A stretch of DNA of 64,000 nucleotides from Paraspadella gotoi. Taxonomy: Eukaryota > Animalia > Chaetognatha. The stretch is taken from NCBI GenBank assembly GCA_051294375.1, contig CM119269.1, positions 23,107,497-23,171,496 of the forward strand. The letters are read 5' to 3'. The position numbers and the translations under genes are program-made. Below, in pieces: positions 1-38,632 of this stretch (position 1 is its first letter; each line of letters begins with the position of its first letter). The notes beneath the pieces were generated by a model. It was not told the DNA's origin. It did no database searches and saw nothing but the letters and a program-made list of their open reading frames with translations.

Positions 1-496
1 TTTTTGAACTGCTTGTCCATTTTTGGGATCTTGAGCTATATGTAGAAGCTGCAGATGTAAATTTTTTAAAGCGCCGCGCTTAGTTTTCAGATTGATACAA
101 GGTGCTACAACACGAATTATTTGTTAATTTTTTTAAAAATATTGTATCATAACATATGACCCAGTTGATAGTCTAACAATTTAATCGAAATATATTCTTT
201 TTGAGTCCAAATAAGAACAAATTTGTTTGTTAACAAAAAATTTAATTTTTTATTTAATATTACATTAAATTGATTAAAATGTGTATTTTATACGTAGCAC
301 CCTGTATCTCTCTCGATCCTCCTCGCAGCCCAGAGATCTCTCTTTCTCTCCTGTCTGCCCGACGAATTTAACAAGTGTGACCTTTCCTTCTCTTACTCTA
401 ATGTACCTCTCTCTCTCTCTCTCTTAACCCTCCCTCCTACTAAAATACATCCTCCCCCTTTTCCCTCTCGGCCGACAATCCCCTTCCCAACTGTAG

Positions 497-688
497 TATC
501 TCGTACCACGGTGTCCGTTTGTCACGACCGGGACTACCGGTGCACCCGTTACGAGTCAGAAAACCGTTGCAGAGATTGGCCCAGATGGATGAGGGAGTAT
601 TGTCCCTCTACCTGTGGGTTTTGCTTTCCTGATCAGTCCCCCATACCGGGCTTGACTGACCTCGATAAGACGAAAAAGCATAAACATG
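497..688 (+). CDS. ShKT (ShK toxin-like) domain exon
   Basis: Flanked by ctgtag and G|gtgcgt. Encodes CHDRDYRCTRYESENRCRDWPRWMREYCPSTCGFC, the six-Cys ShKT pattern (CxDxxxxC...C...MxxxCxxTCxxC). Phase 1-1 exon. Confidence 0.88.
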
Positions 689-3600
689 GTGCGTTGCGAA
701 CCGGACCCTCCCTTGGCACACTGAGCATGAAATGTATTTTAAAAAAAGTTGTAATGGGGGTTTTGAATGTCTATAATGACACACCGGGTCCTTGACGTTT
801 TTATGTTCAGTTGTAATTGATGATTTTACTAACAAAAACAACGCACACTGGGTTTTTTTAAAATTTATGCAGTGTTGTAAAAGAATTGCGATATGTATTA
901 AATTAATAGTTTGAAGAGAGAACAATGTTTTGTTAATAAACAACGGTTTCTTTTTTTCATTTCAGTAGGAAAAAACAAATCGTTTTTTGTTAGCCAATGA
1001 TTTTTTCTTCAAATTTATAACCGCTATATAAAGCTTTCATACAAAGCTCATAGTTTAACAGAAGTTTACTGGGTGGTTGTGTTAGTTTAAAAAAAAAGCA
1101 AAACTGAATTTGTTTAGGTATTAACACCTTTTAGATATACCAATTTGGTTCTTATAACTAAATTCTTTTAATATGAATTTAAATTTTTATAAAACACAGG
1201 TTCTCACTCTTGTCTTCGCACTTTGGTTTCACAGTCGACATAAAAAAGTCACTTTTATGGGATTTCGTTGTTTCACGCACTGGCACCTTAATACAATTGA
1301 TTATATTAAATACTGTTACAGCAATAATCTAATTTTTTTTCCTTTTTTCCCCTACCCTTTTAAACCACCCTTCCCTTAAAACGTTGAAGGCGTTTCAAAA
1401 GTGCCACATAAATCGTCTTCAAAGGTAAAATTTATTTTCATACTCCCCCCAAAGTAGTGTATAGTAGTATAAAGTAGTAATAATGTATAAAAATTCATTT
1501 TATTGTAGCCAACAAAGCCCGACCCTACGAAATTCATCACTCGTTATGACGGGGATAGAAACGTAAGTTTTTAGTCAAATGTAAATTTTTAGATATAAAT
1601 TTTTCTTATCCATAAATATTAAATATTCTTAATTTTTTTCTATAAATTGTTTGTATTATTTGTTTTTTTTTTGTTTTTTTTTTTTATAAAAAAAACTTTT
1701 CTTCTCTGAATCGTAAAAAAAGGGGGAACGTCCTCTTAAAACCCTCCATTCTCCGAAGCCCCCTACGAAAATTCCCTCAACCACCGACCCAGTTGTAACT
1801 TCCCCCGTGACATCGTGGGGAGATGATTTTTCTATGGAAGACAATGAAAATGTTAAGGGGGAAACAGCTGATTCCGATTTTGATCGAACTGAGGTAGAAA
1901 ATGGCGAGATTTAAATTTGGCAGATTTAGAAGTTGATTTTTGGCGTTATTGCACATTAACCGACTTGAAACTTTTTTATGAACGATAAATTTCATTTAAT
2001 ATTTTGTACCATTTTGATAGAATATCACTGAGTTTGGGGTAGAAAGGGCACAAGGGTACATATTACGAAATGGTCGAGGGAAGAAGGGTTTGAGTATTAA
2101 AGTAGTTGGTTTAACGTTTAGGATGATTAGGAGTGGATAGCTTTTGGGTTGAAAGGCTTGGTGTATGTTATGTTAGGTTTTGGGTAAAACATTTTTCAAA
2201 ATATTAGCTACAATAAAAGTTTTGGTTTATAATAGTGCAATTTTGCCAAATTTTCAAGACTTGATGTGCGCAAATCGAGATTTAACTTAAAAAGACAGAA
2301 TAAAAGCTTTTTTGTTTTTTTTTAATGTAAAATGTGGAAGGCAGACCCTTCTGTATTTTACATCTCTGGATAATAATATCGATTATTCGAATGTTTAGCA
2401 AACTGGAACTATAATTACCACTAAACAATTAAAAAAGATCTCACATTGTAAATTTACCAAGCTGTAAGTTAGACGTTCGGAGTTTTTGTAGATTAGATTT
2501 AAAATATCAAACTTTGTTTATTATAATTTAATTGAATATCTCCTCAGTCGAATTTTGACGACAACACGAATAAAATTCATCATGACGGGAAGACCGCCTA
2601 CGATAGAGAAAACGGTGAGCGATCCATTTTTTTCTTTTGACTTTTGTTTTTTTGTGTTTTGTCAATTTCGATTCATTCAAACTGTTTAAGATTATATGTT
2701 AAATTGTTTGAGATTTTAAGCCCGTGACTTGTAATGTTTGTATGGGCGGTGCAAAAGCATAAAATGTAAATATAGTACTGTATAATTTTAGTGTACTGTT
2801 GGTGACGGAATGATTTTAACTTGTTGAAAATCTATTTAAACGAAGTTTTAAAAAGTCCAAAATTTTTTTTTATTAATTTCGAAACCATTATTAACAAATC
2901 CAATAATAAAAAGAATTAAAAAAAAAAGACATGGATTAATTTATTTTAATTTGAAGTCAATATTAATTACGTAAATTGTTCTCTTTTTTTAAACAGAATA
3001 TGATCGTAACGAAATCCCTAGTATAGGAAAAGCCGTCATGGGCCCGAAGCATCAGCATCATGGTGGAAGTTTATGGACGCAGCCGGGCATCTTAGCAGGT
3101 GATCGGTGATTGGCTGGTGATTAATCACTTGCCAGGGTTCTTGAGTTAATTGGTTTTCTTTTTCATATGCATGAAGCTGTTTTTTTATTTTTTTTTTTTT
3201 TAATAAAAAGCCAGTCAAAATAAAAGACCTTAATGCGGTTTTATTTTAATAATACTGTATCTACTTTCTTACACAAAACAAAATTTTCACTCTTTCATGA
3301 CTTTGGCAATTTGATGTCGCTGCTTAAAAAAAAATACAGTGTGTAAGTCAAAAAAAAGTCAATTTTTTCTTTTTCCGGGTTTCTTGCGAATAGTACCGTA
3401 GTTGTAGGGCAAATGATTTCCTTGATCATTAAAAAAATCATTGATTTGCACAAAATTAATATTGTAATATTTCGACAATCAAAGTCTACTACAAATTGAA
3501 GGCCTTTACATTTAATGTAATATTAATTTTCACTTTGGTCAGGGTCGTCAGTTTTTAAATATTTGGGTAATTTAAAAACTTGAATTGTCGAAATTGCTGT

Positions 3601-5719
3601 GTAATCTGACAAAGATCTACAATGTTTAGGGAGGAAATGTACCCTTCATTTCGTATATGGTCCTTTTTATTCATTCAAAATAAGTTTTCCAAAATTTCTT
3701 TTGAAAAATGAGGGTTTTTTTTTTTTATTAAGAAAAAGGTTCTTTTTAAGCATGTCGTGGTACATGGCTCCGGAGGGTAAAATCCCATTTTGATGGGCAA
3801 TAGATGGTAATAGTTTTATAATTTAAGGGAATATTATGTGATATATTCTGCATTTATTATTACTTTCTGTAACAGAAATTGATTTTGAATCTCCATTGTT
3901 TTAAATGGCGGGGAAGATAGGGAAAGTATGAGAAAAATTTAAGAAAAGAGAGGGAGAGAAAGAAAGAAAATAAAGAGGGAGAAAGATACAGATACACAAA
4001 AAGAGAAGTGTTACTAACCAATTGTTAAGTCTATTTTTTTTCAGTAGTCAAAAAAAAAAAAAATAAAATAGTTGAAGTTTATAAGGAAAGTAACTGACAT
4101 TTGAAACTGACACTTCATACTTCACAATTCTATTAAATTAATTGTGATATCAAGGTTTTCAATGTCGTTTTTAAAAGCTAGTGCATTTTCAAACAACGAA
4201 TTTCACTTAATGGTTCCTTTATTCGAGGTAATAATATCCATTTATTGTGAGAATAATAGTTAAATTTTTTGAATGATAGATATGTAATCGAGTTGAGATT
4301 AAGGTCATAGAAACTTGTAACGTCATTGGTTAGGATACCTCATCTTTAATCTTTAGTACAAAAAAAATATAATTTTATATATTTTAAACCGACTCCCTTC
4401 CCTGCTTTGCCCTCATAGCTTAAATCAATATGCAGAACCCTCCTAAAATTGTAAAATATCAATTAAACGTAATTCAACGTATAGACCCGTTAGACGTAAC
4501 CTCGATTTTATTCTCGATTAACATCGGTAGACCTTGATTCCATAATCCTGCATAATTTGCTGTGCGGAATGTTTTCATTTACATTTAATTATTAAAATAA
4601 AAAAACAATCTACAAACCGAATATGAAATTTAACTTGTTGCGTTAGTTTGATCTTATTTCCCCCCCTGCAAAAATTGTTTAACAAAATTAATTAAATTCG
4701 CGTGTGCTAAATGTGTGACAATTAATTTACGAATCGCTCGTCTGTTTGGTTACTGATTTTTTTAATTCAGAATTAAAAATAAATTAGATATTAAAAATTT
4801 TAAAAATAGCATCTCTTTTATTAAAGACTTATTAATTAAAATTTTTTAAAAAGATCTATCCCGCTCCCCAACTATATTTTTGTTTTAGTTTTTTTCTTTT
4901 GTCTTTTGTTTATTTTTTTTTTGGTTTTTCGATTCAGCCGTCATCGGCGCTGCGGTCGTGGGATTGCTCTGCGCCGTCCTTCTTGTCATGTTCATCGTTT
5001 ATCGAATGAGAAAGAAGGACGAAGGTGAGATGGGAACCGGTTGGGGATGGGAACTGGTTGGGAATGGGAGCTGGTTGGGGATGGAAACTGATTGGGTATG
5101 GGAGTGGTTTGGGGATAGGAACTGATTGGGGATGGGAAACATGGTTATGGCTTATGGAACTGGTTGGATGGGAACTGTTTGGGGATGGGAAACTGGTTGG
5201 GATGGGAATGGTTGGGGATGGGAGCTGGTTGGGGATGGAAACTGATTGGGGATGGAAACTTGTTGGGAATGGAGCTTGTTGGGATAGGAACTGATTGGGG
5301 ATGGAAACTGGTTGGTATGGGAACTGTTGGGGATGGGAACTGATTAGGAAGGGGAATCTGGTTGGGGATGGGAACTGTTGGGTAATGGGAACTGTTGGGG
5401 ATGGGGAACTGATGGAGATGGGGAACTGGTTGGTTATGGGAACTGGTTGGGTATGGGAACTGGTTGGGGTAGGGAACTGTTGGGGATGGGAACTGGATTG
5501 GGGATGGGAACTGGTTGGGGATGGGAAACTGTAGTCAAACAAACATTTTCATTGGGATGTCCAAAAAAAATACCCTCGATTCAGACGCTGGTTCCGTTTT
5601 CCGTAACCAATTTTCCTATCAATTCTTGTTAAGGCTCCTACGATTTGGACGAAACGACGAAACGGTCGCCGCGAATCAACGGTTATCAGAGGACGAATCA
5701 ACACGAGTTTTACGCGTGA
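497..5719 (+). CDS. Sdc: Syndecan (transmembrane proteoglycan core protein), 5'-partial, probably including an ShKT exon
   Basis: Firm exons 2997-3098, 4938-5024 and 5634-5719 splice (GT-AG, phase 1) to ...SLWTQPGILAAVIGAAVVGLLCAVLLVMFIVYRMRKKDEGSYDLDETTKRSPRINGYQRTNQHEFYA*. This gives the syndecan TM segment, C1 motif (RMRKKDEGSY) and C-terminal EFYA PDZ ligand. Phase-compatible upstream exons are 2548-2614, 1723-1893, 1509-1562, 1390-1424 and 497-688 (less certain). No start codon or signal peptide lies in the window. Confidence 0.92.
5025..5530. repeat. G-rich ~17-bp minisatellite (GGGGATGGGAACTGGTT)n in the last syndecan intron
   Basis: Degenerate tandem units are directly visible. It is the source of the spurious G/W-rich and P/S-rich ORFs here. 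Confidence 0.9.
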
Positions 5720-20790: not shown

Positions 20791-21878
20791 TCTCGACTTT
20801 ATAATCCATAAAGTCGAGTAAAATTTAATCGTATTCGGTCAATGACAGTTACTCTTGTATTAAAAACGAGTTTCTCTCGATAATTTGCAATTGATTATTG
20901 TTGAAGTTTTCAAGGATTTTAAGGATCCGGCTTATAAGAACAATTGTAAAATTTGTCCCTGAGCAATTTTTTTTTTTACAGTTATTTTTGTTTTCTTCTT
21001 TCAAAGAAATTTATGATTGGAGTGATTTCAAATAAGTGGAATTTTAAATAAAATTAACCAATGTTTATATATAAATTTTCTTTTTAATATGGAAGATTAT
21101 AAAATGATTAAAGAAAGGATATATGAGGCTCTCTCTCTCTCTCGCTCTCTCTCTCTCTTTCTTTCTTTGCTCTTACTCTTAAACTACTCATTTGTCCAAA
21201 GAATTCGAAATATTGGTCATTAATAAATATTGTACCTGTACTCCATGTGTAATCTTTAACTAATTCTTAATCTCGGTACATGCGATGACTATCATAGAAT
21301 AAATAACGAATCATATTATGCACTCTTAATTTCGACGACATGAGTCTGGTACCATATCCTACATGACGCTATGGATACAATTAATTAATTATAAAATAAA
21401 TTAATTTAATTATTTTAAATTATTTTTTTAAATTTAATAATTTTTCTGATTTTATTTTTTTTTAAAAATTTATTAATAACAAACGATATTAACAAAATTC
21501 AAAAAGCAGTAATGCGCTAACAGTAACAGTAACGCAGTAACAGTTATGCAGTAATAGTAACGCTATCAATAACAGCATAAAGAGACTGGAACACAAAAAC
21601 TGGAACATTTTTTTTAATTTACAATCTTGAAACTAAAAAAATTAATTAAAAACGAAAAATTAAAAAAAAATTAAATTATTGTAGATTAATAGCATTTAAT
21701 TTCAGAGAAATTGTATTATCTTAGTAGGCGATTAATGTTGTTTGATTAGTTTTTTGATATAAATTAAAACTACTTCTTTTAAAATGAAAGCCATGAAATA
21801 TGCAAAATGATATTATTGTTGATGAAATGATATTTTTTATACAAGAAACCACTCATCCGCATTCGTCATAACTGCAAT

Positions 21879-24800
21879 ATGCAAATGAGATTTATGCTTC
21901 CCCCTTCAGCGACGAAGCTGACGAAGAGATTGTCGGTGCTGCTTCTTTCCGAGTCCAACAACTCGATGACTCAAAGGCTTCAGGTCGAAGTCTCTCGTCT
22001 CGGACACAGAGTCTCTTTGAAGACAGGATTGAGGTCGAGCGAGATGCAAGCGGCCGTGGAGGAGACAAAACCAGAGGTTCGTAATATTTTTAACTAAATT
22101 ATTATTGAACCAAAATGAAAGTATAGCTAAAATAGTAAAATAAGTTTTCTATAAAGACCGTATCAAAATATATGAGAAATGATCTAAACTACTACAAAAT
22201 CATCGCAGGAGTATCAAACCACCAAAAGCAAAAGATGAAAGAAATCAATATTGTTTGAAATGAACCACAAAATTACTTTGGTACATTTTCTTGTTTTTTA
22301 AAGTTATTTTGTAGTTCTTCCTTGTTTATCTGTTTTGTTTTCATTTGTCTGTTGCATTGTTTCGTTGTTGTTGTTCTTATCTGTTTTGTTATTGTTTCGT
22401 TTCACTCTTTCAATACTATATTATTATTATTCTATTACACTAAACTAAGTATGTACATAACAGTTATAACATTATTCCAACATGATTTAAAATTTGATGC
22501 TAGTGCCGAGTTTTCCTCAATCTAATACTGAAGGGAGTGGTCCTTTATACAATTAAAACATTTCTTGAAATATTATACCACTTCATTGATAGGGAAGCCA
22601 GTTACTCTGGGTGTGAATAAACGAGACTGTGAGAGAGTCTTGATTGAAAGCTTGCAGGGACCTGCTATGTCATAATCTTGTAAGAGTGAAGGAGGCCTTA
22701 AACCACCTGTCCAAAGTCAGGGGCAAGATAGTTTTTATATTAAATGACTGCAGAATTTTAAATTGGTTGTACCAATTTCATTAATCTCTCTCTCTCTCTC
22801 TCTCCCTTCAGATCATTATCTGCCCGTTTCTCAAAACCTTCGTTCCCGAATCGGTTTACTCCGTGCCCGGTCGGCCTTGCCTCATTGTCCACCCCGGCAT
22901 CATCGGCGATCGCGGCCCTTCCTCTTTGGACTGGGCCGTGAGAGAAGGGCGAGCCACTTGGGGCGTGACAATTTTGGAGGCAGCGAAAGAAATGGACGCT
23001 GGGGATGTTTGGTCTTCCGCTGAGTTTAAAGTAAGTTTAAGGGTAAATATTAGGATAAGTAAAGGATAAGAATAAAGTCTATTTAATGGTAAGTATTAGG
23101 GTAAGTTAAGGGTTGAAGAGACAGTAATGATTGTTATGTATTAGTGACAGAACCGTTCAATATAAGCAGTCCCTGAGCTTCAGATGAGGCTTTAACACCG
23201 TGTTACAGGCGAGTTAAGCGCCCCGTCCCTCTTAACTGGCTAGGCGACCACCGGGCTAGAACCCGGACCTTTGGGTTGGGAGGCGAATGACTTGCCTCCG
23301 GCACCAATGGCCGCTGATGAACGGTTGGTGGATTTTAGTCTACCTAGGGTTGATATCTTTCTCTCTCTCTCTCTCTCTCTCTCTTTCCGTTTTAACTTGA
23401 AATCTCCCGCTTCATATCTTGTACAGTGAATATCATTTCCTTCAATTTCTACTCCAGTTTTAAATTTGTTTTTTCACATTTTATTTCCTTTTATTTACCT
23501 CTCCCTCACCCGAAGGTCCCCACCGCTGCCACCAAGTCGTCCCTCTACCGCCTTCAAGCCCAAGAGTCCGCTGTTCGATCCATCAAAGACGCTCTCGTCT
23601 CCTTTCAAAAGAATCTCTCACGTGACTCGACCCCTTTTGTTCCACGACAAGTGGACCCGAATGACCGGAGCGTGGAGGGTCGCGCCATGCCAACCATGAA
23701 GCGCGCCGATCGACGCATCGATTGGTCAGCGTCGTTGGAGGAGGTGGACCGGGCGTTGAGATCTTCGGAGAGTTGGCCGGGTTCTGTAGCCAGGTGGGTG
23801 TGGGGTTTTGAATTGGATATGGCTCAGGTTGCCCTCTCTGACCCAAAAACACTCTTTGACCCTTAAATTTTCCAAACTGACCTTTCTGATCCTTTCTGAT
23901 CTTTTAATCAATCCTTAGACCTTTTAATCACCCACTTTGACCCTTCTGTTTTTCGCGCCAACATTTTATGATCCTCTTCAACTCATCAACGACCCACAAT
24001 GATCATTTAACATTCAATTACCCACATTGACCAATGGTCAATGGTCAATGACCATCCAACATTCAATCGCCCACACTGACTTTTAAAACGACGCAGACTG
24101 ACCATTCAATATTTCAATCGCCCACACTGCCCTCTAAAACGAACCACACTGATTTTTCAACATTTCAATTACCCACACTGATCTTTCCCCATCCCCAGTT
24201 TCCCTAACCTAATCCCCGACCACGAGTTCGGTCTCTTTGGTCCCCGACTCGAGACTGACGCTTCCCTTATCTCCTTCGCGCGCCGCAACTTCGCCTCCTT
24301 CTACGGCGTCGCGCCGACCCCTGGCGCCGTCATCGGGCACCGCGAAGGCGCCATCTTGGTTGCGTTGCGAGAGACAGAGGCTGGGGTCTGGATATCTCAT
24401 TTGAAACCTAAAGCTGGAAAGAAGTGAGAGGAAGGGGGAGGAGAGAGAGAGAGGGAGAGAGAGAGGGAGGAGGGAGAGAGGAGGAGAGAGAGAGAGGGAG
24501 GGAGAGAGGGAGAGGAGGAAAGGAGAAAGAGAGAGGAAAGAGAAAGAAGACAACGAAAAAATAGAGAAAGAGATAATGACAAACAGGTAATCTGTAATCT
24601 GTATGTCTGGCCAATCCGTAGAATCAGTCCGTGTATCTGTCCCGCCGTCGGCATGACTGTCTGTTTGTGAGATTCAGTCGGTATGTCTGACTGTCCGCAT
24701 CGCCATTTTGTTATTCTGTCGGTTCAGCTAGTCTGTCAGTATGTCTTTCTGTCAGTCCGTATGCTTTAAATCTGGTTTCATCATCCTGCTCCACTACAGT

Positions 24801-26686
24801 TACTTCAAAAGCAAAGCTCGAGTGGAGCTGCCGATTCCAGAGGAGCTTTTGGTTCCGGCCTCGGAGGAGCAGTTGGAGCGAAGTTGCGATTTTAAATGGA
24901 GCTACGTTAGATTTGGGGAACGATCCAGAGGATTTCAGGTTTCAGTTTAATTGATGGGAAAGGAATATTTAAATTGATAAATAAATATTTTAATGAATGA
25001 ATATATAAAACTATGTATGACAAACTATAAACCTTTAAACAAATCTAAATAAATGAATAAAAATGTATCAATCAATCAATGAATAGATACTGAAAAGAAT
25101 ATACTAATAAATATGTAAATTAAGTAAATCTATGTTAATGTAACGGGATATATGAATAAATAATTAATTAATACCTATGTAAAATATTTTAAACTTTTTT
25201 GTTCATTTTGAAATTGAGTTTAATTTAGTTTAATATCGTAAAACATGTAATTTTTAAATTTTTTCTCTATAAATAAAAATTGACAAATAGTTGAATTATT
25301 AAACTAATGAATAAATAGATAAATAAATAAAAAATAATATCAAAATATATAAATAAATAAATAAATAAATAAATAAATATATAAATAAATATAGAGAGGA
25401 CGAAGGGAGCCGGAGACTGGCTCCGCTGACGACATAAATATATAAATAAATAAATAAATAAATAAAAACAATTATATAAATAAATAAACTCGCATTTTTC
25501 TTTTCTCCCAGCAAGTCTACATGAGAGAGGATCCAGACTTACCCATTACTTACCTCCATTTCGATTTTTCCGGTGGTGCCAGCTCAGCTGAGCAGAGCTG
25601 GAGATTGTGCGGTGCTGTGGCTCGGGCCTGTCGCGATCTGCGAACACGATGCCGTCAGGTCGTTGGAAGTGGGAGGCAATGACATTGCAGATAGTCGAGC
25701 ACGTTGTGACAATGTGGATTTTTCTCTATCGTTTATTTATAAAAAGAAATTACTCAATAAATAAACTATCTCGCCCCTGACTTCTTACTAGATAATAACA
25801 TACTACATTGCAAGCTTTGAATCAAGACTTTTTTTTCAACCCTAGAGCACTTGGCTACCCTAACCTATCTTATAGGTCAAAGTTCAAGGATGCAAAATAA
25901 CCTATTAATTTTGTCAATTTGTACTAATTCAGCATTTAAGCCTTTAATTAAAAGGATATAAATAAATTATTCAATTTTTTTTTTATTCAGGAATTGAAAT
26001 CTGGAAAAGCGATGAATCCTCCCCTTCTCGTTTTGATGGGAGGAGATCAATTCTTCAGGTGAATCTGATTCTGAATCTGAATCTGAATATAAATCAAAAT
26101 TTGAATCTGAATCTGAATCTAAAACAAGTTTGAGCAAACGATGCCGGATCTGCCCACGATCATTAGTGTTAATTATGTAGTCGGGCATTGCCTAGGTTCA
26201 CCCCGCCTAGAATCATGACACTTTCAGTTGTGACCCGGTGGCTCATTGAGTAAAGCCATCAGCTCATGACCACTAGGTACCGGGTTCAATCCCAACCCTG
26301 TACCTACCCTGCGGGAAGCGTGAGGACGGCCGTAAGCCGCCTTGGGGGAATGGCAAACCCTCAAGCCTGGTTCCAAGCCCAGGGACCCGTTCCATGGCTG
26401 CTAGAGGGGGTTATAGAAGTTACGGACAGTCATCTTCAGCCCACGTAGCGCCTTATCCACAAATTATTTAATTAATTAATTAATTAATTAATTAACTACT
26501 CTACTTAACTACTATACTCTCTCCCCCAACTTTATTCACTATCACAGTATAACTCACAGTATTACCGCATTTAATTCACAGCAACGGCATCGATTTAAAT
26601 TGGATCCATGGGGCACAAGCGCCTGACCTGGCTTCTTGGATTAGCATAAACGCGTTTAATGACGTCATCAAAACGTAAATCAATAA

Positions 26687-26720
<34 letters not shown>

Positions 26721-27252
26721 GGCTCTCTTTTCCGAGAGTGCCCCGTTTCTGTTCTTTTATCCCAAAATTTAATTTTGATCTTAATATTTAAACCTAAATA
26801 TATTTTTAAACCTATAAACCATTCCCTAACCCTAATAGCTAATCCTTAACCCCAACTTAATTCTCAACCCTAACCCTAACCCCAACTTAATTCTCAACCC
26901 TCACCCTAACTCTAACCCCTAACCATAAACGCTAACATAAATCCTTACACTTTTTTATTATTATTATTTATTATTTATTATTCCTTTATTATTTATTATT
27001 TATTTATTATTTATTATTCCTTTATTCATCTCCCAGGTTTCTCTTAGAACCGGAAGTCGTGGTGGCGGCGGCGTTAAGAAGAAACGCCGGCGCTGGCGGC
27101 GTCATGTTGGCCGCGGCCACTGATCACGTCATCTCTGGAGACTCGGTCATTCTCAATCCTTCTTACAAAGTGAGACTTTAAATCAAATTTAAATCTTAAA
27201 ATAAATATAAAAATTGGAATTAAGACGAAAACCAACTCAAATTGAAACCCCC

Positions 27253-27289
<37 letters not shown>

Positions 27290-27662
27290 AAGCCCATGCG
27301 TCTTTTCGGGTCGGAATACTGGACCCATTTTCTTCCTTCACGAGTTGGACCCGACACGGCGCGCCTTTGGACGGAATCGCCTGCGCCGGTCGGCGCTCAC
27401 GAAGCGAAAGACGCCGGTCTGGTGGACGCTTTAATCCCGGTTCCATTGGGCGCCGATGACGAGGACGACGCCTTCGTGGCGGAAGCGCGCCGGTACGCGG
27501 CGTCGCTCGAGATCGGCGCCGTGCGGGACCGAAAGTTGAGTCTCGTCGGCGTGGCTGAAGGAGAGGCGCTGGAGAGAGCGAGAGAGAGAGAGTTTGTAGA
27601 AATGAGAAGATGTTTCCTGGATGGAGGAATTTCACGAAGCGAGAAGAAAGTTTGTGATGCGT

Positions 27663-27665
<3 letters not shown>
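21879..27665 (+). CDS. hypX: HypX/HoxX-like protein (N10-formyl-THF formyltransferase domain + enoyl-CoA hydratase/isomerase domain), ~610 aa, 9 exons
   Basis: Exons 21879-22076, 22812-23030, 23516-23793, 24199-24423, 24800-24938, 25512-~25670, ~26582-26674, 27037-27169 and 27293-27665. Motifs: LLLSESNNSMTQRL, IICPFLK, LIVHPGIIGDRGPSSLDWA, WGVTILEAAKEMDAGDVW, KSSLYR, MKRADRRIDW, SESWPG, YLHFDFSGGA, SNGIDLN, SWISINAFND, NAGAGGVMLA, LNPSYK, LFGSEYWTHFLPSRVG, EMRRCF..FHEARRKFV. The exon 6/7 junction is unresolved. One extra base near 27622 must be removed to reach the HypX-like C-terminus EEFHEARRKFVMR*. Confidence 0.93.
22531..22777 (+). repeat. Interspersed repeat family C (unclassified)
   Basis: Near-identical to 32349-32605. 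Fragments lie at ~10450-10560(-), 14250-14360, 17020-17125(-), 25760-25830(-), 46150-46270 and 55290-55350. Confidence 0.75.
23115..23344 (-). mobile_element. SINE-like family A copy in hypX-like intron 2
   Basis: Reverse complement of 16170-16400. Confidence 0.8.
26176..26454 (+). mobile_element. tRNA-derived SINE-like family B (~280 bp) in hypX-like intron 6
   Basis: Internal A-box-like TGGCTCATTGAG and B-box GGTTCAATCCC, with a CTCATGA loop between them. Other copies: 16502-16775(-), 32695-32839(+, partial) and 56636-56874(-). Confidence 0.72.
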
Positions 27666-27739
<74 letters not shown>

Positions 27740-29214: not shown

Positions 29215-30906
29215 CTCTATCTGGGATAGTGGTAATCTGGGTCTAACTAACGAAGTCGTAAAGGAAGAAGGCGAAATGTAGGAAAACGTGTATACTGTAT
29301 ATACTACTAAAAAGGCAAAAAAAGGTGTACAAAAACTGGAGGGAAAAATCGGAAGGAGCGGAGAGGAGAAAGTAGAGGGGAGAGAGTAGAAACGAGAAGT
29401 GAAAACTGGGTGAGCCTCGAGCCCTGGGTGCTAGGAGGAGGAAGAGGAAGGTGAATGCGTGGCTGACGAGACACGAGACTCGCGCTCGGGCTGGTTTGGT
29501 CGTTGTTTATGATTAGTACTCATTATAAAAAATAAAAAAAAATTTAAATAATGTTATTTTGTTTTGAAAGGAGATTCAAATTCTTATAAAAGTTGATAAA
29601 AAGAAAATATAATCTTAATCAAAAATTTTTTATTAAGTTAGCCAAAAATTCAAAAAACTACATTTATTATAAATAAATTTAATTATAGGTTAATAATAAT
29701 AGTTTTTTTAGGATTTTGACCAAATAGATTAATTATATTTCTTTCGAATTCGAATCTGCTTTTAAAAATAAAAATTTTTACATTTTTTATGGTGAGTACT
29801 ATACATAAATATGGGCAAAAGCTAAAATTAAAATTTTTTTTTTATTTAAAAATGTTACATGTACAAGCCTTTTCGTGATCGACTATTCAAATTTTGATTC
29901 TACTTGATTTTAATATTTTTGCTACGCTTTACTCAGTCGGTCTGTATACTAAGTATAACTTTCAAAATCTAAAAACCTGACAAGAAAAAAATTTGTTGAA
30001 CGATAATTAAAATGAATTAATTAAAAAATAAAAAAAATATAATTAAGGACGTCATTCATACAATAGTTTTTCAATAACAGCAATGATTATCAAGATTTAT
30101 TAATTGGGGAAAGCGGTTGATTCTTTGAATTATTAATTTATTATAAAATATGAAATAAACCTGAAATTCAAGTTAAATGAATGACAGATAGTATGCTAAT
30201 GGGGAAACATGTACGATGGCGGGATGTAAGGTATTTCCCGACAGCTGGCGCTCAAGGATTTTTGACCCACTTTATGAAGGATTTTTTTAAAAAAAATTAT
30301 ATTTCTTTTTATCAACTTTTTATGACGAATCCAAATCTGCCAAAAAAATCTTAGAAAAACTGTTTTAAAATTAACATTTATTATGGCCTACTGCGTAAAT
30401 TGTAAAATTTATTAGAAGTTTTTTTTTATACCTAAATGTTCATTAGTATAATGTTGTTCGTTCCTCACTTTTAGAATTTCAATTAAAGTTAAATTTAAAA
30501 ATTTTATTACGCCTTAATAACCACCGTATCACTAGCGAGTTTACGCCAACACAATTAAATACAACCAGCACGACCGTTAGGGAATTGAACTCGTAATTTA
30601 CGGTTCGTGAACGAATACTTAACCAATGGAACAAACTGAGTTTTATGAAGCTATACAGAAGGCGAATTTAGGATTCGTCACAATACAAGATTTTCTCAGA
30701 TCTGTAACGCACACTCAGTGTAGAAAAAGGTCAGACTCAATATTGACGTGACTCAGTCACGTCAATATTTGGCCTTATTTTCGAAGAAAGCATAATGAAT
30801 ATTAGATCTTAAGTTTAGGAAGTTTAAAAAAAAAACAGCAATGGGGTGCTTTCGGAAAAGTGAGCCCAAAATTTTAAATAAGAATTAATATTGATATTAT
30901 TCTGCC

Positions 30907-33327
30907 TTAGCACAGAAGCCAGTCCCTATGTTCTCTCGGTCGGCATTTATCTGGACAAGGTCCGTTCGTCTTCAGGGCCACTGAACCAGTTCTGCCCCCG
31001 ACGTAATTCACCACGTGAGGGTCAGTAAAGTTTGGTCCGGATATCCGTCGCGTTGGCCAGGGTCTGTTCAGTTCGCTCTTGAAGGCCTCGCACAAGTAGC
31101 TGTCGTGGGCGACCATGTCGTTTTTGAAAATTGGCCAAGCGAATCTGGAGAGAGCGTGCTGTGAAAGAGAGAGAGAGAGATTGAATGCGTATTTTGTATT
31201 TTGAAATTTGTAATAGTATTTTGTATTATGTAATATGTATTCATTATTTGAAATTCATAATCTTGCCAGCGATAATGATTTTTTGTTATTTTAAATTTTG
31301 CAGAAAAAAAAGTTGATTTTGATGTCATCCTCTCTTGGCAATTATTTTCTTTTAATTAAAGTTTATATTAAAAGATTAAGAAAGTTAGGGATTAAGTTAA
31401 GGATTAAATTAGTGGTAAAGATTAGGAAGTTGGGGTATGATTAGGTTGGGGACCAAGGAGTTGAGGGTTCAGGATTATGGTTTAAAATTGAGATATCTTA
31501 AGATATATTTAGGTTAAATATTAAAATTAAAATTGAAACAAAAATGGGTCACATTTGGAGAATAGAGCCTCCCTAACCTGATCCAAAGGCCTCCATTGAT
31601 TGCTGCCCGCGAATTTCAAAATGGCGTCGAACAAATTTCTCAGCCTTTCCCTTTTGTCCGATTTGATCTTCATTCCGTGCAATCCCGCCAGGATGTGAGC
31701 TTTCTGCATCTTGTGATCCCTCATGACGTGAAACGAGTATCCAGTCGCGTTCCAATCTTTCACCGCCGCCACTTCACGGGGCGTGATGCTGGAGTCAAGG
31801 TCACGACTGTGATATTCCACGCACAGTGGATCGGCCATCGTGGCAAATCGCCAGAGTCGTCCGTGATTGAGAGAGAGAGCGGGATACTGTGCTGTGAGGA
31901 TTGAACGGGGGAGGGGGAGAGAGAGAGAGAGAGAGTGAGGAAAAATAGGAGGAAGAGAAAGAGAGATTTGTCAATTTTGACAATCTCTCTCTCCTTCTCT
32001 CTCTTTGTCTTTTTCACTCTCTTTTTTGTTCCTTTCTGCCTACTTATTTTGCTACTTCCCCCCGCTCTCTCTCTCTCTCTCTCACTCTGCTCTCTCTCTC
32101 TCTCTCACCAATGTCTCCGACATCGCAAATGTCAAAAATAGTTTCGTTGCAAAAAACTTTGCAAAGCTCAGAATTTTCCTCTTTTGTTAAATTTTTCCAA
32201 TTTACGTAGAGACGCATTAAATATCCGGGATAGAAATGACGGATTTGACCCAAATTCTTTGTGATGCCTGTTAAAATAAAATAAAATCCAGCTCCTTTTA
32301 TTTTGATGCTGGGCGGAGTTCAATATAGCATTCCCCGATCTAATACATAAGGGAGTGGTCTTTTCATAAAATTGAAACATTCTTTGAAATATTATACCAC
32401 CTCACTGATAGGGAAGCCAGTTACTTTGGGAGTGAATAAACGAGACTGTGAGAGAGTCTTGATTGAAAGCTTGCAGGGACCTGCTATGTCATTATCTTGT
32501 AAGAGTGATGGAGGCCTTAAACTACCAAAGCCTGTCCAAAGTCAGGGGCAAGATAGCTTATTTATTAAATGAATGGATAATTCTTATATTAATTGTACCA
32601 ATTTCAAACAAATATATGATATAAATAAATAAATAATATGACGTCCCGGCAAGTTTACCGGTCTTTAAGCCAGTCGCCTTAAGTCGCGATCTGATCCCTG
32701 AGTACTGCCATCAGCTAATGGTACCTACCTCGCGATATGCGTGAGGACGGCCCTAAACCGCCACTGGTGCCTGGAAAACCCTCAAGCCTGGTTCCAAGCC
32801 CAGTTCAAGAAGTTGCGGATAGTCATCTTCAGCCCACTTAGTATTAATATAATAAATATATTATGTTTAATTTTATTCTTTCATCCGTCTTACAAGATAA
32901 TAACAAGCTTTGAATCAAGATTCTCTCAGAGTCTAGTTTGGCTTTCTTATAAATGGACCACTCTCACATGTTAACCAGAATTACTATCTAATATAAATGT
33001 TACTCAATGAAATATAAACCCAAACCCTTTTATATACAAACCAGTATAAAATCTCGAGTAAAACAAAGTCGAGGATGAACCAAAAAACGAATAAGCGAAT
33101 ATTTTTTGTCCCGATCCTCGATCCGTGGCTACTTGACTGCACAGCGATCTATTCCCGATCTGAGTTTCCTCAATCTTTTTCACCACTTTACACCCACACT
33201 GTGGGTCGAGTTCGTTGCGTTGCGTTCGTACGATAGAAAATTGAAATGAAAAATCGCAGTATTTTATGTATAAATGTATGCAGATCGTCAGTAGGAGACA
33301 AGTGACTACGAAGATATTCTGTTTCAT
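30907..33327 (-). CDS. Type II membrane, putative glycosyltransferase-like protein, paralogue A
   Basis: Exons 33327-33042, 32267-32109, 31891-31578 and 31158-30907 are in phase. N-terminal TM, then YSFFG, FYPGYLMRLY, GRLWRF, HSRDLDS, REVAAVKDW, FHVMRDHKMQ..ILAG, DQ, WP, HDSYLC, RPWPTRR and CPDKCRPREHRDWLLC*. Confidence 0.88.
32349..32605 (+). repeat. Interspersed repeat family C copy
   Basis: Near-identical to 22531-22777. Lies in the paralogue-A-specific intron. Confidence 0.8.
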
Positions 33328-34019
33328 TTTTAAAATTGCGTCTTTTTTTAAATGATCTGGATATTTGAGGAAAACTGGTTCCCTTTACTATTGAGCGGAG
33401 ATGTCGCTTTTTTTGTAGAGGCGGGATTAATTAGGGTGATATTTTGTAGTTCGTTTGAGTACTCGTTGATTTTAAATACATTTGGAATTTAGTTTGTTAC
33501 AGTTAAATTGAAATAAAAGGGTAACTGAGAGATTGATTTTTATGTTTTGACTAAAATACGCGACGAGATATGAAACGAGAACGCTAATTCCTACGTGTTG
33601 CGCCGCAAAATTTATTTTCACGTGCATTTCCTTTTGATGACATGATATGACATGACATTACATGACTAAAAAACTTTTTTGCCCTTGTATTTATGACATG
33701 CACTGCATCAAAATTCTGTCTTTTATTCTTTATAGTTTTAGGAATTCCTAAAGGAGGCGCTAGCAGTCTCTTAGAATTTAGTTTTTTTTCGGTTTAAACA
33801 AATGAGAAACCAACGATAGGCAAATTACATGCATTTTCAACGTAAATGGGATAGACCGAAGGACAGACATACGGACCGACCGACTGACCGACCAAAAAGT
33901 GACTTATACTAAAAAAAATCTTAAAGTATAGTGATCTAGCCAGACTTTACTATCAAAGAAAATTAATGAAAAAATCCAGAAAAAAACGAATGATTGATGC
34001 GATTACGAATTATTGATGT

Positions 34020-34247
34020 GGTGGACTACAATCAACCACTTGTTCGTCAGCGTCCATTGGTGCGGGAGGCTAGTCATTCACCTCCAAACCCAAAGGTCCG
34101 AGTTTCTAGCCCTGTGGTCGCCTAGCAGTTAAGAGGGACGGGGCGCTTAACCCGCCTGTAACATGGTTACAGCCTGATCCGAAGCTCAGGAACCGCTTAT
34201 ATTGAACGGTTCTGTCACTAACGCATAACTATAATTACTGTCTCTTC
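34020..34247 (+). mobile_element. SINE-like family A copy (more diverged)
   Basis: Co-linear with 16170-16400. Confidence 0.78.
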
Positions 34248-35110
34248 AAGTAATTGATTATTGATAAATAAACGAAAAGAAAACGATAGTAAACTTGAAA
34301 ATAAAAATCTTCAACCAAAAACAGGAAAAGCGAGAAAGAATTTTCCTTTTTTTTGGTTGATTGACTCTCGTAGTTTAGACGATCGATCCATTTTTGCACG
34401 AGATAATCATAATATAATTACATATATCTTTTTATCAAATTTTGGAGCCGCCTCCTTTGACGTACAAAAAATATGATTAAATTGTAAATATAGCTTTAGC
34501 TTAAGCCTTCGTTTCAGAAAAAAAAAAAGAAAATGTCTTTGTTTTGGTCTTTTACGCTCGTTTTTCAAATCGACGAGAGGCTCAACCGGTTTTTTTCTTT
34601 TTTTCGAAAATTAGACTCGAATTTTATATCATGGAAGAATGATTTTTGAAAAAAAGATTTTTTCTTTACAATTTGATCTTGTAATATTTATATTTTTATT
34701 AGTAATTATTGTCGGAAACAAAAATAATAAATGTTTCCGATAAAAAAACAATAGAGGACAATTTATGGTTTGTTGTATTTTTTTTAAAGACTCGTTTTGC
34801 ATTATTTTTATTGTTGACCCAAATTAAATAATAGATATTCAAAATTAAAAACTTACAAAATGGTTTGATTGCTTTTTAAAGAAAAATAATAATGAATACA
34901 TAAATAATCTTCTGTAGAAGACGAAAATATTTAATTAATTATCAATTAATTTTCAATCGATTATATATTTAATCCGCAAAAGCACAAATAAATTAAGGGA
35001 AATTAATGAAAGTCAAATAAAATTAAATAAAAAAAAAATTCATTAAATTAAAAAAGTAAATAAATGAATTAACGTCATGTATAAATTAAATTAAAAAAAA
35101 CAATTAAAAT

Positions 35111-37010
<1,900 letters not shown>

Positions 37011-38632
37011 TGTTTTTTGTTTTTTGTTTTTTTTTTCAGAAATGAACTTTAGAAGATAAACAAGAACGATAATTCCAATTTGTTGCGCTGCAGTGTCTTT
37101 CTTATTAATTAATTATAAAATAAATGTGTAATAAACGTTCTTGGTTGTTCGTTTATCTGCAAAGTCTTAACTTAAAACAATTAAATATTGTATATTATAT
37201 TGTATAGCGCGTTGATCACGTGACCACATTTTTTTATGGTTAAATAAAAAGCATTTACTGATTCCTTAACAGACGGTCGAGTAATAACTAAAATAACTAA
37301 GTATTTTATGAATAACGTCATATTAAATTTGGGGTCGTATGATCGTTTTTTGATTTGATCACATGAATCACATGAATCTGTTATATATGCATAATAGAAG
37401 TTTTATAATGGTACCTTACCATTCTACTAAATATGAACTTAATTGATGCGGTGAGTGGGAAAGGCAAATAGACAGACAGCCAACCTCCGATAGCCCGCTA
37501 GTACTCGCGAGTACTCGCGGCGCAACTAAAAATTAAGATGTTTTTTTAGAAACCTTTAATATAGTTCATTTCTGATTTCTATATATATATGCGCATTGGT
37601 TGGTTACCGCGTTACACATCTCAAATGAAAAAACATTTTAAATGTTTTTGAAAATGTTATTTAAATTTGTTGTGTATTTTTTAAAGAAGGAAACAGTAAC
37701 TTCTAAAAACTATATGTATAATTCGTCAATGAGTTGAGAAATCAGATGTATACATTTATTTATTGTTATTATTGAACAGCAAGACTTTAATTTTTATTAT
37801 TTAACAAAAAAAAAAATATCCGTTTTGATTTTTTTTAGCTGATTTTTAACTGATTTTTTTACTCGGAACACGACGACGACGACGACAACAAAGACGACGA
37901 AAACGACAATGCAACCGTTCGCCACACGGAACATTCTGACCCTTTGCCTGCAAGAAACCAAAGCCGACGCCGACAACGAGTTTAACATGCAATTTCATTT
38001 CTTCCATCTGCTCTTCTGGTCGGTCGGTCTTTGTCATGTCATTAATNNNNNNNNNNTTTGTCATTCCATTAATAATTAATAAAACGACACTGAATTTAGC
38101 CTTTTTTTTTTAAAAGCGCTTAATTTCAGGGTTAGAGATGTTGGACATGAACTCTCGTCGTAATTCATCATTCTTATTTCCATTTTATAAAAAAAGTTTA
38201 TAAATATAAACAAGCGATATTTGGTTACAAACATTACTGTTCATTACTATCTCATTGCTTTGCTTAATCATGATTCCATTTTATACAGATTGTAATAATA
38301 TTAATTAGCCATCGTCGGGGTTTAGTATTTGTTTGCGTGGTTTATTTATGGTTTATATCGCTTGTGGCTAAGCCGAGCTTACCTGAGAGGTCATTGTTTA
38401 CTGATTGATTATCGATGCTTGCTTTTTGCTTACCTCTAGTTCTTGATCTCTAAAGACTCGTTTCAACCTGCGTTATTGATACTCTCAGAAGGGTGAGCAA
38501 GAGACGGAAAACCCCGCTCATCACTGGTGCATCGTCCAGTTCAATTTTTGTGTCAGAATCCCGGGTATCTCTCTCCCCCCCTCGTCCACACCCAGTGGGT
38601 GCGGATGCTCATCAGAGAGAGAGAGCTGGAAA

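What the first reader, a model, noticed from the sequence alone, without database searches (positions are those of the whole stretch)
21879..27665. Intron-rich animal homologue of HypX/HoxX, the bacterial carbon-monoxide-generating enzyme, with catalytic residues apparently intact
Seen: a ~610-aa, 9-exon gene with spliceosomal introns carrying host SINEs, so it is genomic rather than contamination, and with full-length two-domain HypX architecture. Established: bacterial HypX transfers a formyl group from N10-formyl-THF to CoA and decarbonylates formyl-CoA to supply the CO ligand of [NiFe]-hydrogenases. From my recollection of the Aquifex structure, the key residues are His/Asp/Asp in the N-domain and Tyr/Glu in the C-domain. 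Here they map to H and D of VHPGIIGD, D of EMDAGD, Y of NPSYK and E of GSEYW. Animals have no [NiFe]-hydrogenase. Inference: this is a haem-oxygenase-independent route to CO (a gasotransmitter), or a formyl-CoA/one-carbon overflow pathway, from ancient HGT or patchy retention. I recall HoxX-like automatic annotations in fungi and some invertebrates, but no demonstrated function.
Basis: partly seen in the sequence, partly recalled or inferred. Interest (0 to 1): 0.9.

Follow-up and report, generated by a model that had tools for sequence, protein, structure and literature searches.

The report
Mitochondrial CO-making enzyme in an animal
This animal genome holds an unbroken ten-exon gene for a relative of HypX, the bacterial enzyme that turns a folate-bound formyl group into carbon monoxide; it keeps all five catalytic residues and most likely belongs to an unstudied eukaryotic family that likely works in mitochondria, where it would be a haem-independent source of CO.

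Summary
The gene is real and intact. It has ten exons, not nine: a missed 68-nt exon closes the 'broken' junction. The late frameshift is an assembly error, absent in 4 of 4 public runs. One contig shows introns 8 and 9 spliced out. The 609- or 623-aa product is a full two-domain HypX homologue (36-38% identity) that keeps all five catalytic residues but is unusually diverged.

It is not unique: HoxX-like proteins are already auto-annotated in corals, Nematostella, Trichoplax, amphioxus, sea cucumber, a tardigrade, a gnat, mosses and algae, and this scan reported the family before in a clubroot parasite and a fungus.

New here: the eukaryotic proteins form one side of the tree (SH-aLRT 98-99). 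Most carry mitochondrial-type presequences (62 of 80 extended, against 4 of 119 bacterial). Some are fused to FolD, which makes their substrate. Bacterial relatives occur in genomes without hydrogenase, and sit beside MHYT gas-sensor genes in five lineages.

Best reading (0.55): a mitochondrial 10-formyl-THF decarbonylase that releases CO without hydrogenase or haem. Main rival: formate release. No eukaryotic member was found tested in print.

The parts
21879..22076 (+). Exon 1 (aa 1-66): start codon, N-terminal extension and start of the formyltransferase domain
   Evidence: upstream in-frame stop at 21828
21879..21929 (+). 17-residue N-terminal extension, 4 basic and 0 acidic residues; predicted mitochondrial presequence (short and weak on its own)
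22510..22740 (.). Host repeat in intron 1
   Evidence: one near-full copy at 89% and 5 partial copies elsewhere in the window
22812..23030 (+). Exon 2 (aa 67-139): formyl-transfer triad H93 (22890-22892), D99 (22908-22910), D128 (22995-22997)
   Evidence: Pfam Formyl_trans_N; HypX 6J0P E 4e-20
23140..23320 (.). SINE-like host repeat in intron 2
   Evidence: 4 other copies at 87-92% in the window
23516..23793 (+). Exon 3 (aa 140-231): R151 (Aquifex R131) and S225 (S194) kept; D224E and W226 (Q195) deviate
24199..24423 (+). Exon 4 (aa 232-306): Formyl_trans_C subdomain
24800..24938 (+). Exon 5 (aa 307-353): interdomain linker
25512..25658 (+). Exon 6: start of the crotonase-fold domain; the family's FYNGAM motif reads FSGGAS here; the donor may instead lie after 25616
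25991..26058 (+).
   Evidence: GT/AG and phase fit; aligns to VLVLMGG..FF of homologues
26130..26460 (.). Host repeat in intron 7
   Evidence: 6 partial copies elsewhere in the window
26582..26674 (+). Exon 8: SNGI loop
   Evidence: its last 30 nt join exon 9 in the X9 contig
27037..27169 (+). Exon 9: NAGAGG helix and catalytic Y499 (27164-27166)
27293..27665 (+). Exon 10: catalytic E508 (27314-27316), C-terminal helices, stop at 27663-27665
27623..27623 (+). One extra base in the assembly; an error, not a frameshift
   Evidence: left out in 4 of 4 runs from 3 studies

Best explanation
This is an intact, spliced animal gene for a full-length HypX-family enzyme that is likely imported into mitochondria and likely converts 10-formyl-THF to CO plus THF through enzyme-bound formyl-CoA, with no hydrogenase to serve. 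Shown here: the gene structure, splicing of 2 of 9 introns, the two domains and the five catalytic residues. Established for bacterial HypX: the N-domain His/Asp/Asp triad moves the formyl group from 10-formyl-THF to bound CoA, and the C-domain Tyr/Glu pair decarbonylates formyl-CoA. Inferred: mitochondrial import (a family-wide presequence signal, weak for this copy alone); the same chemistry in eukaryotes; descent from an old eukaryotic acquisition, most likely within the metazoan subclade. Speculative: what the CO does. It could be an outlet for one-carbon units that regenerates THF without NADP+ or ADP, or a local signal or brake on haem proteins such as cytochrome c oxidase.
For: Catalytic residues: H74, D80, D109 and E426 equivalents in 287 of 287 aligned homologues, Y416 in 283 of 287, all five in 22 of 22 named eukaryotic proteins and in this gene. 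Chemistry: structure paper PMC6802093; the review PMC12134894 states that formyl transfer and CO release were shown in vitro. Fold: a model of the window's best BLAST hit, P0131, matches 6J0P at TM 0.83/0.92, rmsd 2.1 A. Location: N-terminal extension of 10 aa or more in 62 of 80 eukaryote-side proteins against 4 of 119 bacterial-side; 45 of the 62 are basic and acid-poor. Substrate supply: C-terminal FolD fusion in 8 of 84 eukaryote-side proteins (Ascophyllum, Cladosiphon, Rotaria, Pharyngomonas) and in one Chloroflexota locus; folD or formate-THF ligase is the adjoining gene in 5 of 80 bacterial loci. Use without hydrogenase exists: no hyp or hydrogenase gene within about 5 kb in 79 of 80 loci closest to the eukaryotic alignment; no HypD in 11 of 30 hand-picked genomes; no NiFe large subunit over cut-off in 5 of the 5 of those that were tested. 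A gas as product: an MHYT gene lies in 11 of those 79 loci and 0 of 141 hydrogenase-linked loci. These are five lineages in four places on the tree, each with a chance of 0.2-0.7%. MHYT of CoxC senses CO (abstract of PMC11347149).
Against: No eukaryotic member was found assayed in nine paper searches. This copy is a long branch (1.9-2.4 against medians of 0.67-0.84) and keeps 84 of 96 conserved columns (median 93.5; sixth lowest of 124). The losses include N306->G and Q195->W, two of the three residues whose added mutation lowered CoA binding in Aquifex. N306->G is, however, also in 80 of 80 Streptomyces proteins, 76 of which sit beside hydrogenase genes. The presequence here is only 17 aa, and no targeting predictor was run. 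8 of the 10 MHYT-linked genomes searched still have HypD elsewhere, so MHYT could sense O2 to control ordinary hydrogenase maturation; MHYT was also absent from the 20 hydrogenase-free loci of the other two scans. FolD fusion shows the substrate, not the product. The host genome is not held, so absence of hydrogenase in it rests on general knowledge.
Confidence: 0.55

Rival explanations
1. Same gene and compartment, but the product is formate: the enzyme is a CoA-mediated 10-formyl-THF deformylase in which the Tyr/Glu pair activates water to hydrolyse formyl-CoA. It would then be a one-carbon overflow valve like PurU-type deformylases (recalled).
For: FolD fusion and adjacency to folD or formate-THF ligase fit folate recycling equally well. 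The structure paper itself considers a water activated by Tyr416/Glu426. Making CO next to cytochrome c oxidase is costly (general knowledge).
Against: The same residues give CO in bacterial HypX. No substitution separates eukaryotic from hydrogenase-linked proteins at the five sites; the shorter Tyr-Glu loop (9 against 10) also occurs in hydrogenase-linked Streptomyces and Clostridium proteins. The MHYT linkage points to a gas.
Confidence: 0.2
2. The family makes CO, but this copy has drifted: weakened CoA binding, low activity, or a new acceptor or product.
For: Long terminal branch; 12 of 96 conserved columns changed, 9 of them in the C-domain; W226 is unique among 287 rows; possible 14-residue insertion after the FSGGAS helix.
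Against: All five catalytic residues and 84 of 96 conserved columns are kept across ten exons with an open frame and a spliced transcript. One of the 12 changes (position 601) reverts with a base read in the laid runs. N306->G occurs in hydrogenase-linked proteins.
Confidence: 0.17
3. On origin only: an independent, lineage-specific transfer from a bacterium (for instance actinobacteria that share the FxGGA motif), followed by intron gain.
For: Identity is about equal to animal and to bacterial homologues. The AU test did not reject a tree joining it to a Nocardia protein (p 0.15). Signature columns are weak: 4 eukaryote-like, 2 bacteria-like, 5 neither.
Against: It falls on the eukaryote side in 4 of 4 free trees. 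The best tree found joins it to the metazoan clade (3.5 lnL above the free search), whereas the Nocardia join is 27.7 lower. Like that clade it ends right after the FVxx motif and has an N-terminal extension.
Confidence: 0.1
4. Pseudogene, contaminant or mis-assembly.
For: The assembly shows a frameshift near the end, and introns 1-7 were not checked by reads.
Against: The frameshift is absent in 4 of 4 runs and a spliced contig exists; no stops, canonical introns; host repeats in introns and GC3 like the neighbours.
Confidence: 0.03

Closest known systems
HypX/HoxX, 10-formyl-THF decarbonylase (Aquifex aeolicus, PDB 6J0P; Cupriavidus necator)
   Same: Formyltransferase N-domain plus crotonase-fold C-domain in one chain; H74/D80/D109 and Y416/E426 equivalents; Q15, R131, S194, A392 kept; the same fold for a close eukaryotic homologue.
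   Different: Spliceosomal introns; N-terminal extension; no hyp genes or hydrogenase to serve; Tyr-Glu loop one residue shorter; N306->G, Q195->W, M309->S; activity untested.
Auto-annotated 'hydrogenase maturation factor HoxX-like' proteins of Nematostella, Oculina, Trichoplax, Branchiostoma, Apostichopus, Hypsibius, Bradysia; unnamed ones in Ceratodon, Chara, Plasmodiophora, Euglena
   Same: Full-length homology at about 35-38%, the same side of the tree, same catalytic set, N-terminal extension.
   Different: This copy is much more diverged and has no close relative in the searched libraries (best exon-10 hit E 1e-8). No function for any of them was found in print.
ALDH1L1/ALDH1L2 (10-formyl-THF dehydrogenase) hydrolase domain and methionyl-tRNA formyltransferase
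   Same: Homologous N-domain and formyl donor; transfer to a pantetheine thiol in FDH.
   Different: Far weaker match (E 3e-6 against 4e-20); no ACP or ALDH domain; His/Asp/Asp rather than His/Ser/Asp; crotonase C-domain present.
Haem oxygenase (recalled)
   Same: The accepted enzymatic source of CO in animals.
   Different: Unrelated fold; uses haem and O2, whereas this enzyme would use a folate one-carbon unit.

Membership tests
HypX family (sequence and fold) | Formyltransferase N-domain joined to a crotonase-fold C-domain over about 560 aa | tested here: met
   Pfam on exons; full-length BLAST, residues 3-623; best PDB hit is HypX for exons 2 and 10
HypX family (sequence and fold) | Formyl-transfer triad His74/Asp80/Asp109 | tested here: met
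   H93, D99, D128
HypX family (sequence and fold) | Decarbonylation pair Tyr416/Glu426 | tested here: met
   Y499, E508; spacing 9 rather than 10
HypX family (sequence and fold) | CoA-tethering residues (R9, Q15, R131, S194, Q195, N306, R542) | tested here: inconclusive
   Q15, R131, S194 and a terminal Arg kept; R9->S and Q195->W at columns that vary in the family; N306->G, also seen in hydrogenase-linked Streptomyces proteins
HypX family (sequence and fold) | HypX fold of the window's own protein | not testable with these tools
   The spliced protein could not be folded; its best BLAST hit P0131 was folded instead (TM 0.83/0.92 to 6J0P)
HypX family (sequence and fold) | CO release from 10-formyl-THF through formyl-CoA | not testable with these tools
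   Needs an assay
HypX as a [NiFe]-hydrogenase maturation factor | Works with HypC/HypD and a [NiFe]-hydrogenase in the same cell | not testable with these tools
   No whole genome is held; animals are not known to have these genes (general knowledge). Not filed as a maturation factor.
Eukaryotic HypX-like clade | Groups with the other eukaryotic members, apart from bacteria | tested here: inconclusive
   Eukaryote side in 4 of 4 trees, split support 0.99, 0.89, 98, 99; best tree with metazoans; but a bacterial sister was not rejected, p 0.15
Eukaryotic HypX-like clade | Basic, acid-poor N-terminal extension | tested here: met
   17 aa, 4 basic, 0 acidic, hydrophobic moment 0.54 over residues 1-24; import itself untested
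ALDH1L / FMT formyltransferases | ACP and ALDH domains (ALDH1L), or a stand-alone two-subdomain enzyme (FMT) | tested here: not met
   The C-terminal half is crotonase-like; TIGR00460 28.6 bits on exon 2 alone and 43.7-51.5 on two full-length homologues, against a cut-off of 201.5

The most novel reading that the evidence does not exclude
Many eukaryotes, including corals, sea anemones, placozoans, echinoderms, amphioxus and this animal, have a dedicated mitochondrial CO synthase that turns folate one-carbon units into CO without haem. It ties serine and glycine catabolism to a gas that can act on respiration or signalling. The enzyme's general role is hydrogenase-free CO production, read in several bacteria by adjoining MHYT sensors, and hydrogenase maturation is only one use of it.
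Probability: 0.3. Interest if true: 0.9.

Novelty: new variant of a known kind. Interest (0 to 1): 0.64.

Why it matters
Enzymatic CO in animals is normally credited to haem oxygenase (general knowledge). A conserved, probably mitochondrial enzyme that makes CO from 10-formyl-THF would be a second route and a new exit from one-carbon metabolism. It would matter for hypoxia and respiration control in corals and other invertebrates, and for biological CO sources. The claim is cheap to test: one recombinant assay with an established CO read-out, and a knockout in Nematostella. The single gene adds little alone; the value lies in the family-level pattern (presequence, FolD fusion, MHYT linkage).

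Tried and rejected
Pseudogene reading: rejected. 'Broken exon 6/7 junction': explained by the missed exon; a frame-shifted extension of exon 6 was considered by eye and is not needed. Run search: no listed holder was on record as RNA; this is no evidence either way, and the splicing claim rests on the laid contig. Read support for introns 1-7 was not obtained, so the exon 6 donor stays open; the length of the X9 contig fits both donors and does not decide. No whole genome is held, so copy number, haem oxygenase content and absence of hyp genes in the host were not tested. Host lineage: a neighbouring exon found no homologue; phylum unresolved. Tyr-Glu loop length as a marker of hydrogenase-free proteins: rejected; 51 of 56 HypD-linked loci have spacing 10, but spacing 9 occurs in 80 of 80 Streptomyces loci and in one Clostridium locus. 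CO-dehydrogenase genes near MHYT genes: none among 32 of 71 called ORFs scanned from four 19-20 kb regions of two actinobacterial genomes. The ORF clustering had a coordinate bug and was redone; only its tblastn part is used. The FastTree sister P0256 is a long-branch join and was dropped from the last tree. 27 of 314 rows were dropped as partial before the first tree; later trees used 124, 59 and 37 selected rows of 461. NCBIfam gave no HypX-named family among the top five hits shown per protein. No complex prediction was run: no binding is claimed. Paper searches that found nothing on eukaryotic HypX/HoxX; one search was on MHYT. Most subscription papers are outside the library, and no supplements were read; the homologue list of the original C. 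necator paper may name eukaryotic sequences.


Full report
Gene structure. The region holds ten exons on the + strand: 21879-22076, 22812-23030, 23516-23793, 24199-24423, 24800-24938, 25512-25658, 25991-26058, 26582-26674, 27037-27169 and 27293-27665. All nine introns begin GT and end AG, the phases fit, and there is no stop in 625 codons. The 68-nt exon at 25991-26058 supplies the missing LVLMGG..FF motif and closes it. The exon 6 donor has two in-frame candidates. After 25658 (623 aa) the donor matches consensus at 6 of 9 positions. After 25616 (609 aa) it matches 4 of 9, but the motif spacing becomes 40 residues, within the 38-41 seen in 104 of the 108 rows scored, where the longer model gives 54. 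This is unresolved. Residue numbers below follow the 623-aa model.

Intact and spliced. Four runs from three studies were laid on 27020-27670. The base at 27623 is left out in 4 of 4, so the apparent frameshift is an assembly error and the frame ends at TAG 27663-27665. Run X9, which the tool only guesses to be RNA, has one 1957-nt contig. It covers exons 9 and 10 at adjoining record positions, has no cover in intron 9, and its loose end before 27037 is the end of exon 8. Introns 8 and 9 are therefore spliced out; introns 1-7 were not tested by reads. Repeats in introns 1, 2 and 7 recur elsewhere in the window, and GC3 (0.60) matches three neighbouring exons (0.61-0.64). A syndecan exon and an ShK domain nearby mark the host as an animal. 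The phylum was not determined, and no whole genome is held.

Identity. Exon 2 hits Aquifex HypX at E 4e-20 and formyltransferases at 3e-6 or worse; exon 10 hits only HypX. The model aligns over nearly its whole length at 36-38% to the best of 233 homologues. Through the tardigrade-Aquifex alignment (chain numbering is offset by 20) H93, D99, D128, Y499 and E508 equal His74, Asp80, Asp109, Tyr416 and Glu426, the residues named in PMC6802093 (parts 1-4 of 7 read: abstract, results, discussion). That paper proposed the mechanism from structures. The review PMC12134894 (ten passages read) states that formyl transfer and CO release were later shown in vitro; that primary paper was not read. Four of the five residues are in 287 of 287 aligned rows, the Tyr in 283, and all five in 22 of 22 named eukaryotic proteins. 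The window's own spliced protein could not be folded; a model of its best BLAST hit matches 6J0P at TM 0.83/0.92.

Against an unqualified 'intact'. This copy keeps 84 of 96 columns conserved at 90% or more (median 93.5, sixth lowest of 124) and is a long branch. Q195 is Trp, unique among 287 rows, and N306 is Gly. Both are among three residues whose added mutation lowered CoA binding in Aquifex. The Gly is tolerated elsewhere: 80 of 80 Streptomyces proteins have it, and 76 of those 80 loci hold hydrogenase subunit genes. The Q195 column is variable across the family.

The family. Homologues are already auto-named HoxX-like in Hypsibius, Bradysia, Nematostella, Oculina, Trichoplax, Branchiostoma and Apostichopus. 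They also occur in Ceratodon, Calypogeia, Chara, Plasmodiophora, Ascophyllum, Cladosiphon, Rotaria, Euglena and Pharyngomonas. In four trees the named eukaryotic proteins and the window lie on one side of a branch and the named bacterial ones on the other: FastTree on 287 rows (0.99; 27 partial rows of 314 dropped) and on 124 rows (0.89), PMSF on 59 rows (98) and on 37 rows (99). Many rows on the eukaryote side are unnamed, the sample grew from a tardigrade query, and the trees are unrooted, so one early acquisition is likely but not shown. The window's place within that side is unstable. The best tree found joins it to the placozoan-cnidarian-echinoderm-amphioxus clade (3.5 lnL above the free search). 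Joining it to a Nocardia protein costs 27.7 lnL but is not rejected (p 0.15). Signature columns are weak (4, 2 and 5).

Where it likely works. An N-terminal extension of 10 residues or more is in 62 of 80 eukaryote-side proteins and 4 of 119 bacterial-side ones; 45 of the 62 have two or more basic and at most one acidic residue in the first 25. This is the make-up of mitochondrial presequences (general knowledge). The window has 17 such residues, four basic and none acidic. No predictor was run; the moss, liverwort and insect-clade proteins fit less well.

What it likely uses and makes. FolD, which produces 10-formyl-THF, is fused to the C-terminus in 8 of 84 eukaryote-side proteins and 0 of 122 bacterial-side database proteins, and in one Chloroflexota locus; folD or formate-THF ligase adjoins the gene in 5 of 80 loci. 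Of the 80 bacterial loci closest to a eukaryotic alignment, 79 have no hyp or hydrogenase gene within about 5 kb. Of 30 hand-picked genomes 11 lack HypD and 19 have it. Five of the 11 were tested and none has a NiFe large subunit over cut-off, including two records titled as chromosomes. So the enzyme is kept in bacteria with no hydrogenase. An MHYT gene lies in 11 of the 79 loci, in 0 of 141 hydrogenase-linked loci and in 0 of 20 other hydrogenase-free loci. The 11 are five lineages (Methylococcales, Nocardia, Actinocrispum, Trueperaceae, one unnamed) in four places on the tree. Their genomes hold 1-4 MHYT genes each, so the chance per lineage is 0.2-0.7%. The MHYT domain of CoxC senses CO through copper (abstract of PMC11347149). 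This is indirect support for a gas as product. The limit is that 8 of the 10 MHYT-linked genomes searched have HypD elsewhere, so O2 sensing for hydrogenase maturation is an alternative.

Mechanism and odds. Most likely (0.55) the protein enters mitochondria, binds CoA, takes the formyl group from 10-formyl-THF at the His/Asp/Asp site, swings formyl-CoA to the Tyr/Glu site and releases CO and THF. The chemistry is carried over from bacteria by residue conservation; import and product are inferred; the purpose of the CO, overflow or signal, is speculative. Rivals: formate release (0.2), a drifted copy (0.17), pseudogene or artefact (0.03). On origin alone, an independent bacterial transfer has about 0.1.

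Prior knowledge. Eight searches of the paper library for HypX/HoxX in eukaryotes or for haem-oxygenase-independent CO listed nothing on the subject; only listings were seen, apart from the two HypX papers above. The library lacks most subscription papers. This scan noted the same family before in a clubroot parasite and a fungus. I saw the Plasmodiophora protein in my own trees; fungal members were not checked. A word search of earlier notes for the MHYT and FolD links found none.

Verdict. A real, expressed, divergent member of an old and unstudied eukaryotic branch of a known enzyme family: a new variant of a known kind. Interest 0.64, because the family-level evidence makes a haem-independent, probably mitochondrial CO source directly testable.

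Noticed in passing
window 4928-5026 (+) and 427-723 (+): A syndecan transmembrane and cytoplasmic exon (Pfam 58.5 bits) and an ShK-like domain (34.2 bits); used as evidence that the host is an animal.
   Followed up: partly
window about 30900-37100 (-): Two tandem paralogous multi-exon genes. One exon had no Pfam hit and another no homologue in the protein search. Function not determined.
   Followed up: partly
L032, L036, L040, L054: Four Bacteroidota HypX proteins, in loci with hyp genes, have Thr in place of the catalytic Tyr416. Either the Tyr is dispensable there or the chemistry differs.
   Followed up: no
P0086, P0108: A Methylomonas HypX-like protein and an unnamed relative are fused to a C-terminal hemerythrin domain, a non-haem iron gas-binding fold.
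   Followed up: partly
L006:1691-4225; L180, L220, L226; L181, L199: A bacterial HypX-FolD fusion (Chloroflexota), folD directly beside the gene in three loci and formate-THF ligase close downstream in two.
   Followed up: yes
13 of 80 loci in L161-L240: A DJ-1/PfpI-AraC regulator recurs near hydrogenase-free HypX-like genes, often directly upstream, mostly in methanotrophs.
   Followed up: partly
P0011, P0121/P0370, P0123, P0231: The tardigrade protein is sister to a Euglena cluster (93-94), the gnat protein groups with plants and protists, and the bdelloid rotifer protein is a FolD fusion. All lie outside the main metazoan clade, so secondary transfers into animals are possible.
   Followed up: no
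P0200: An unnamed protein with a long basic N-terminal extension groups with Clostridium on the bacterial side; it may be a separate eukaryotic acquisition.
   Followed up: no
window 27585, 27595, 27628: Three base differences between the window and the laid runs near the microsatellite-rich end of exon 10; the assembly looks error-prone there.
   Followed up: partly
window about 26820-26930: Degenerate CCCTAA-type repeats inside intron 8, seen by eye.
   Followed up: no
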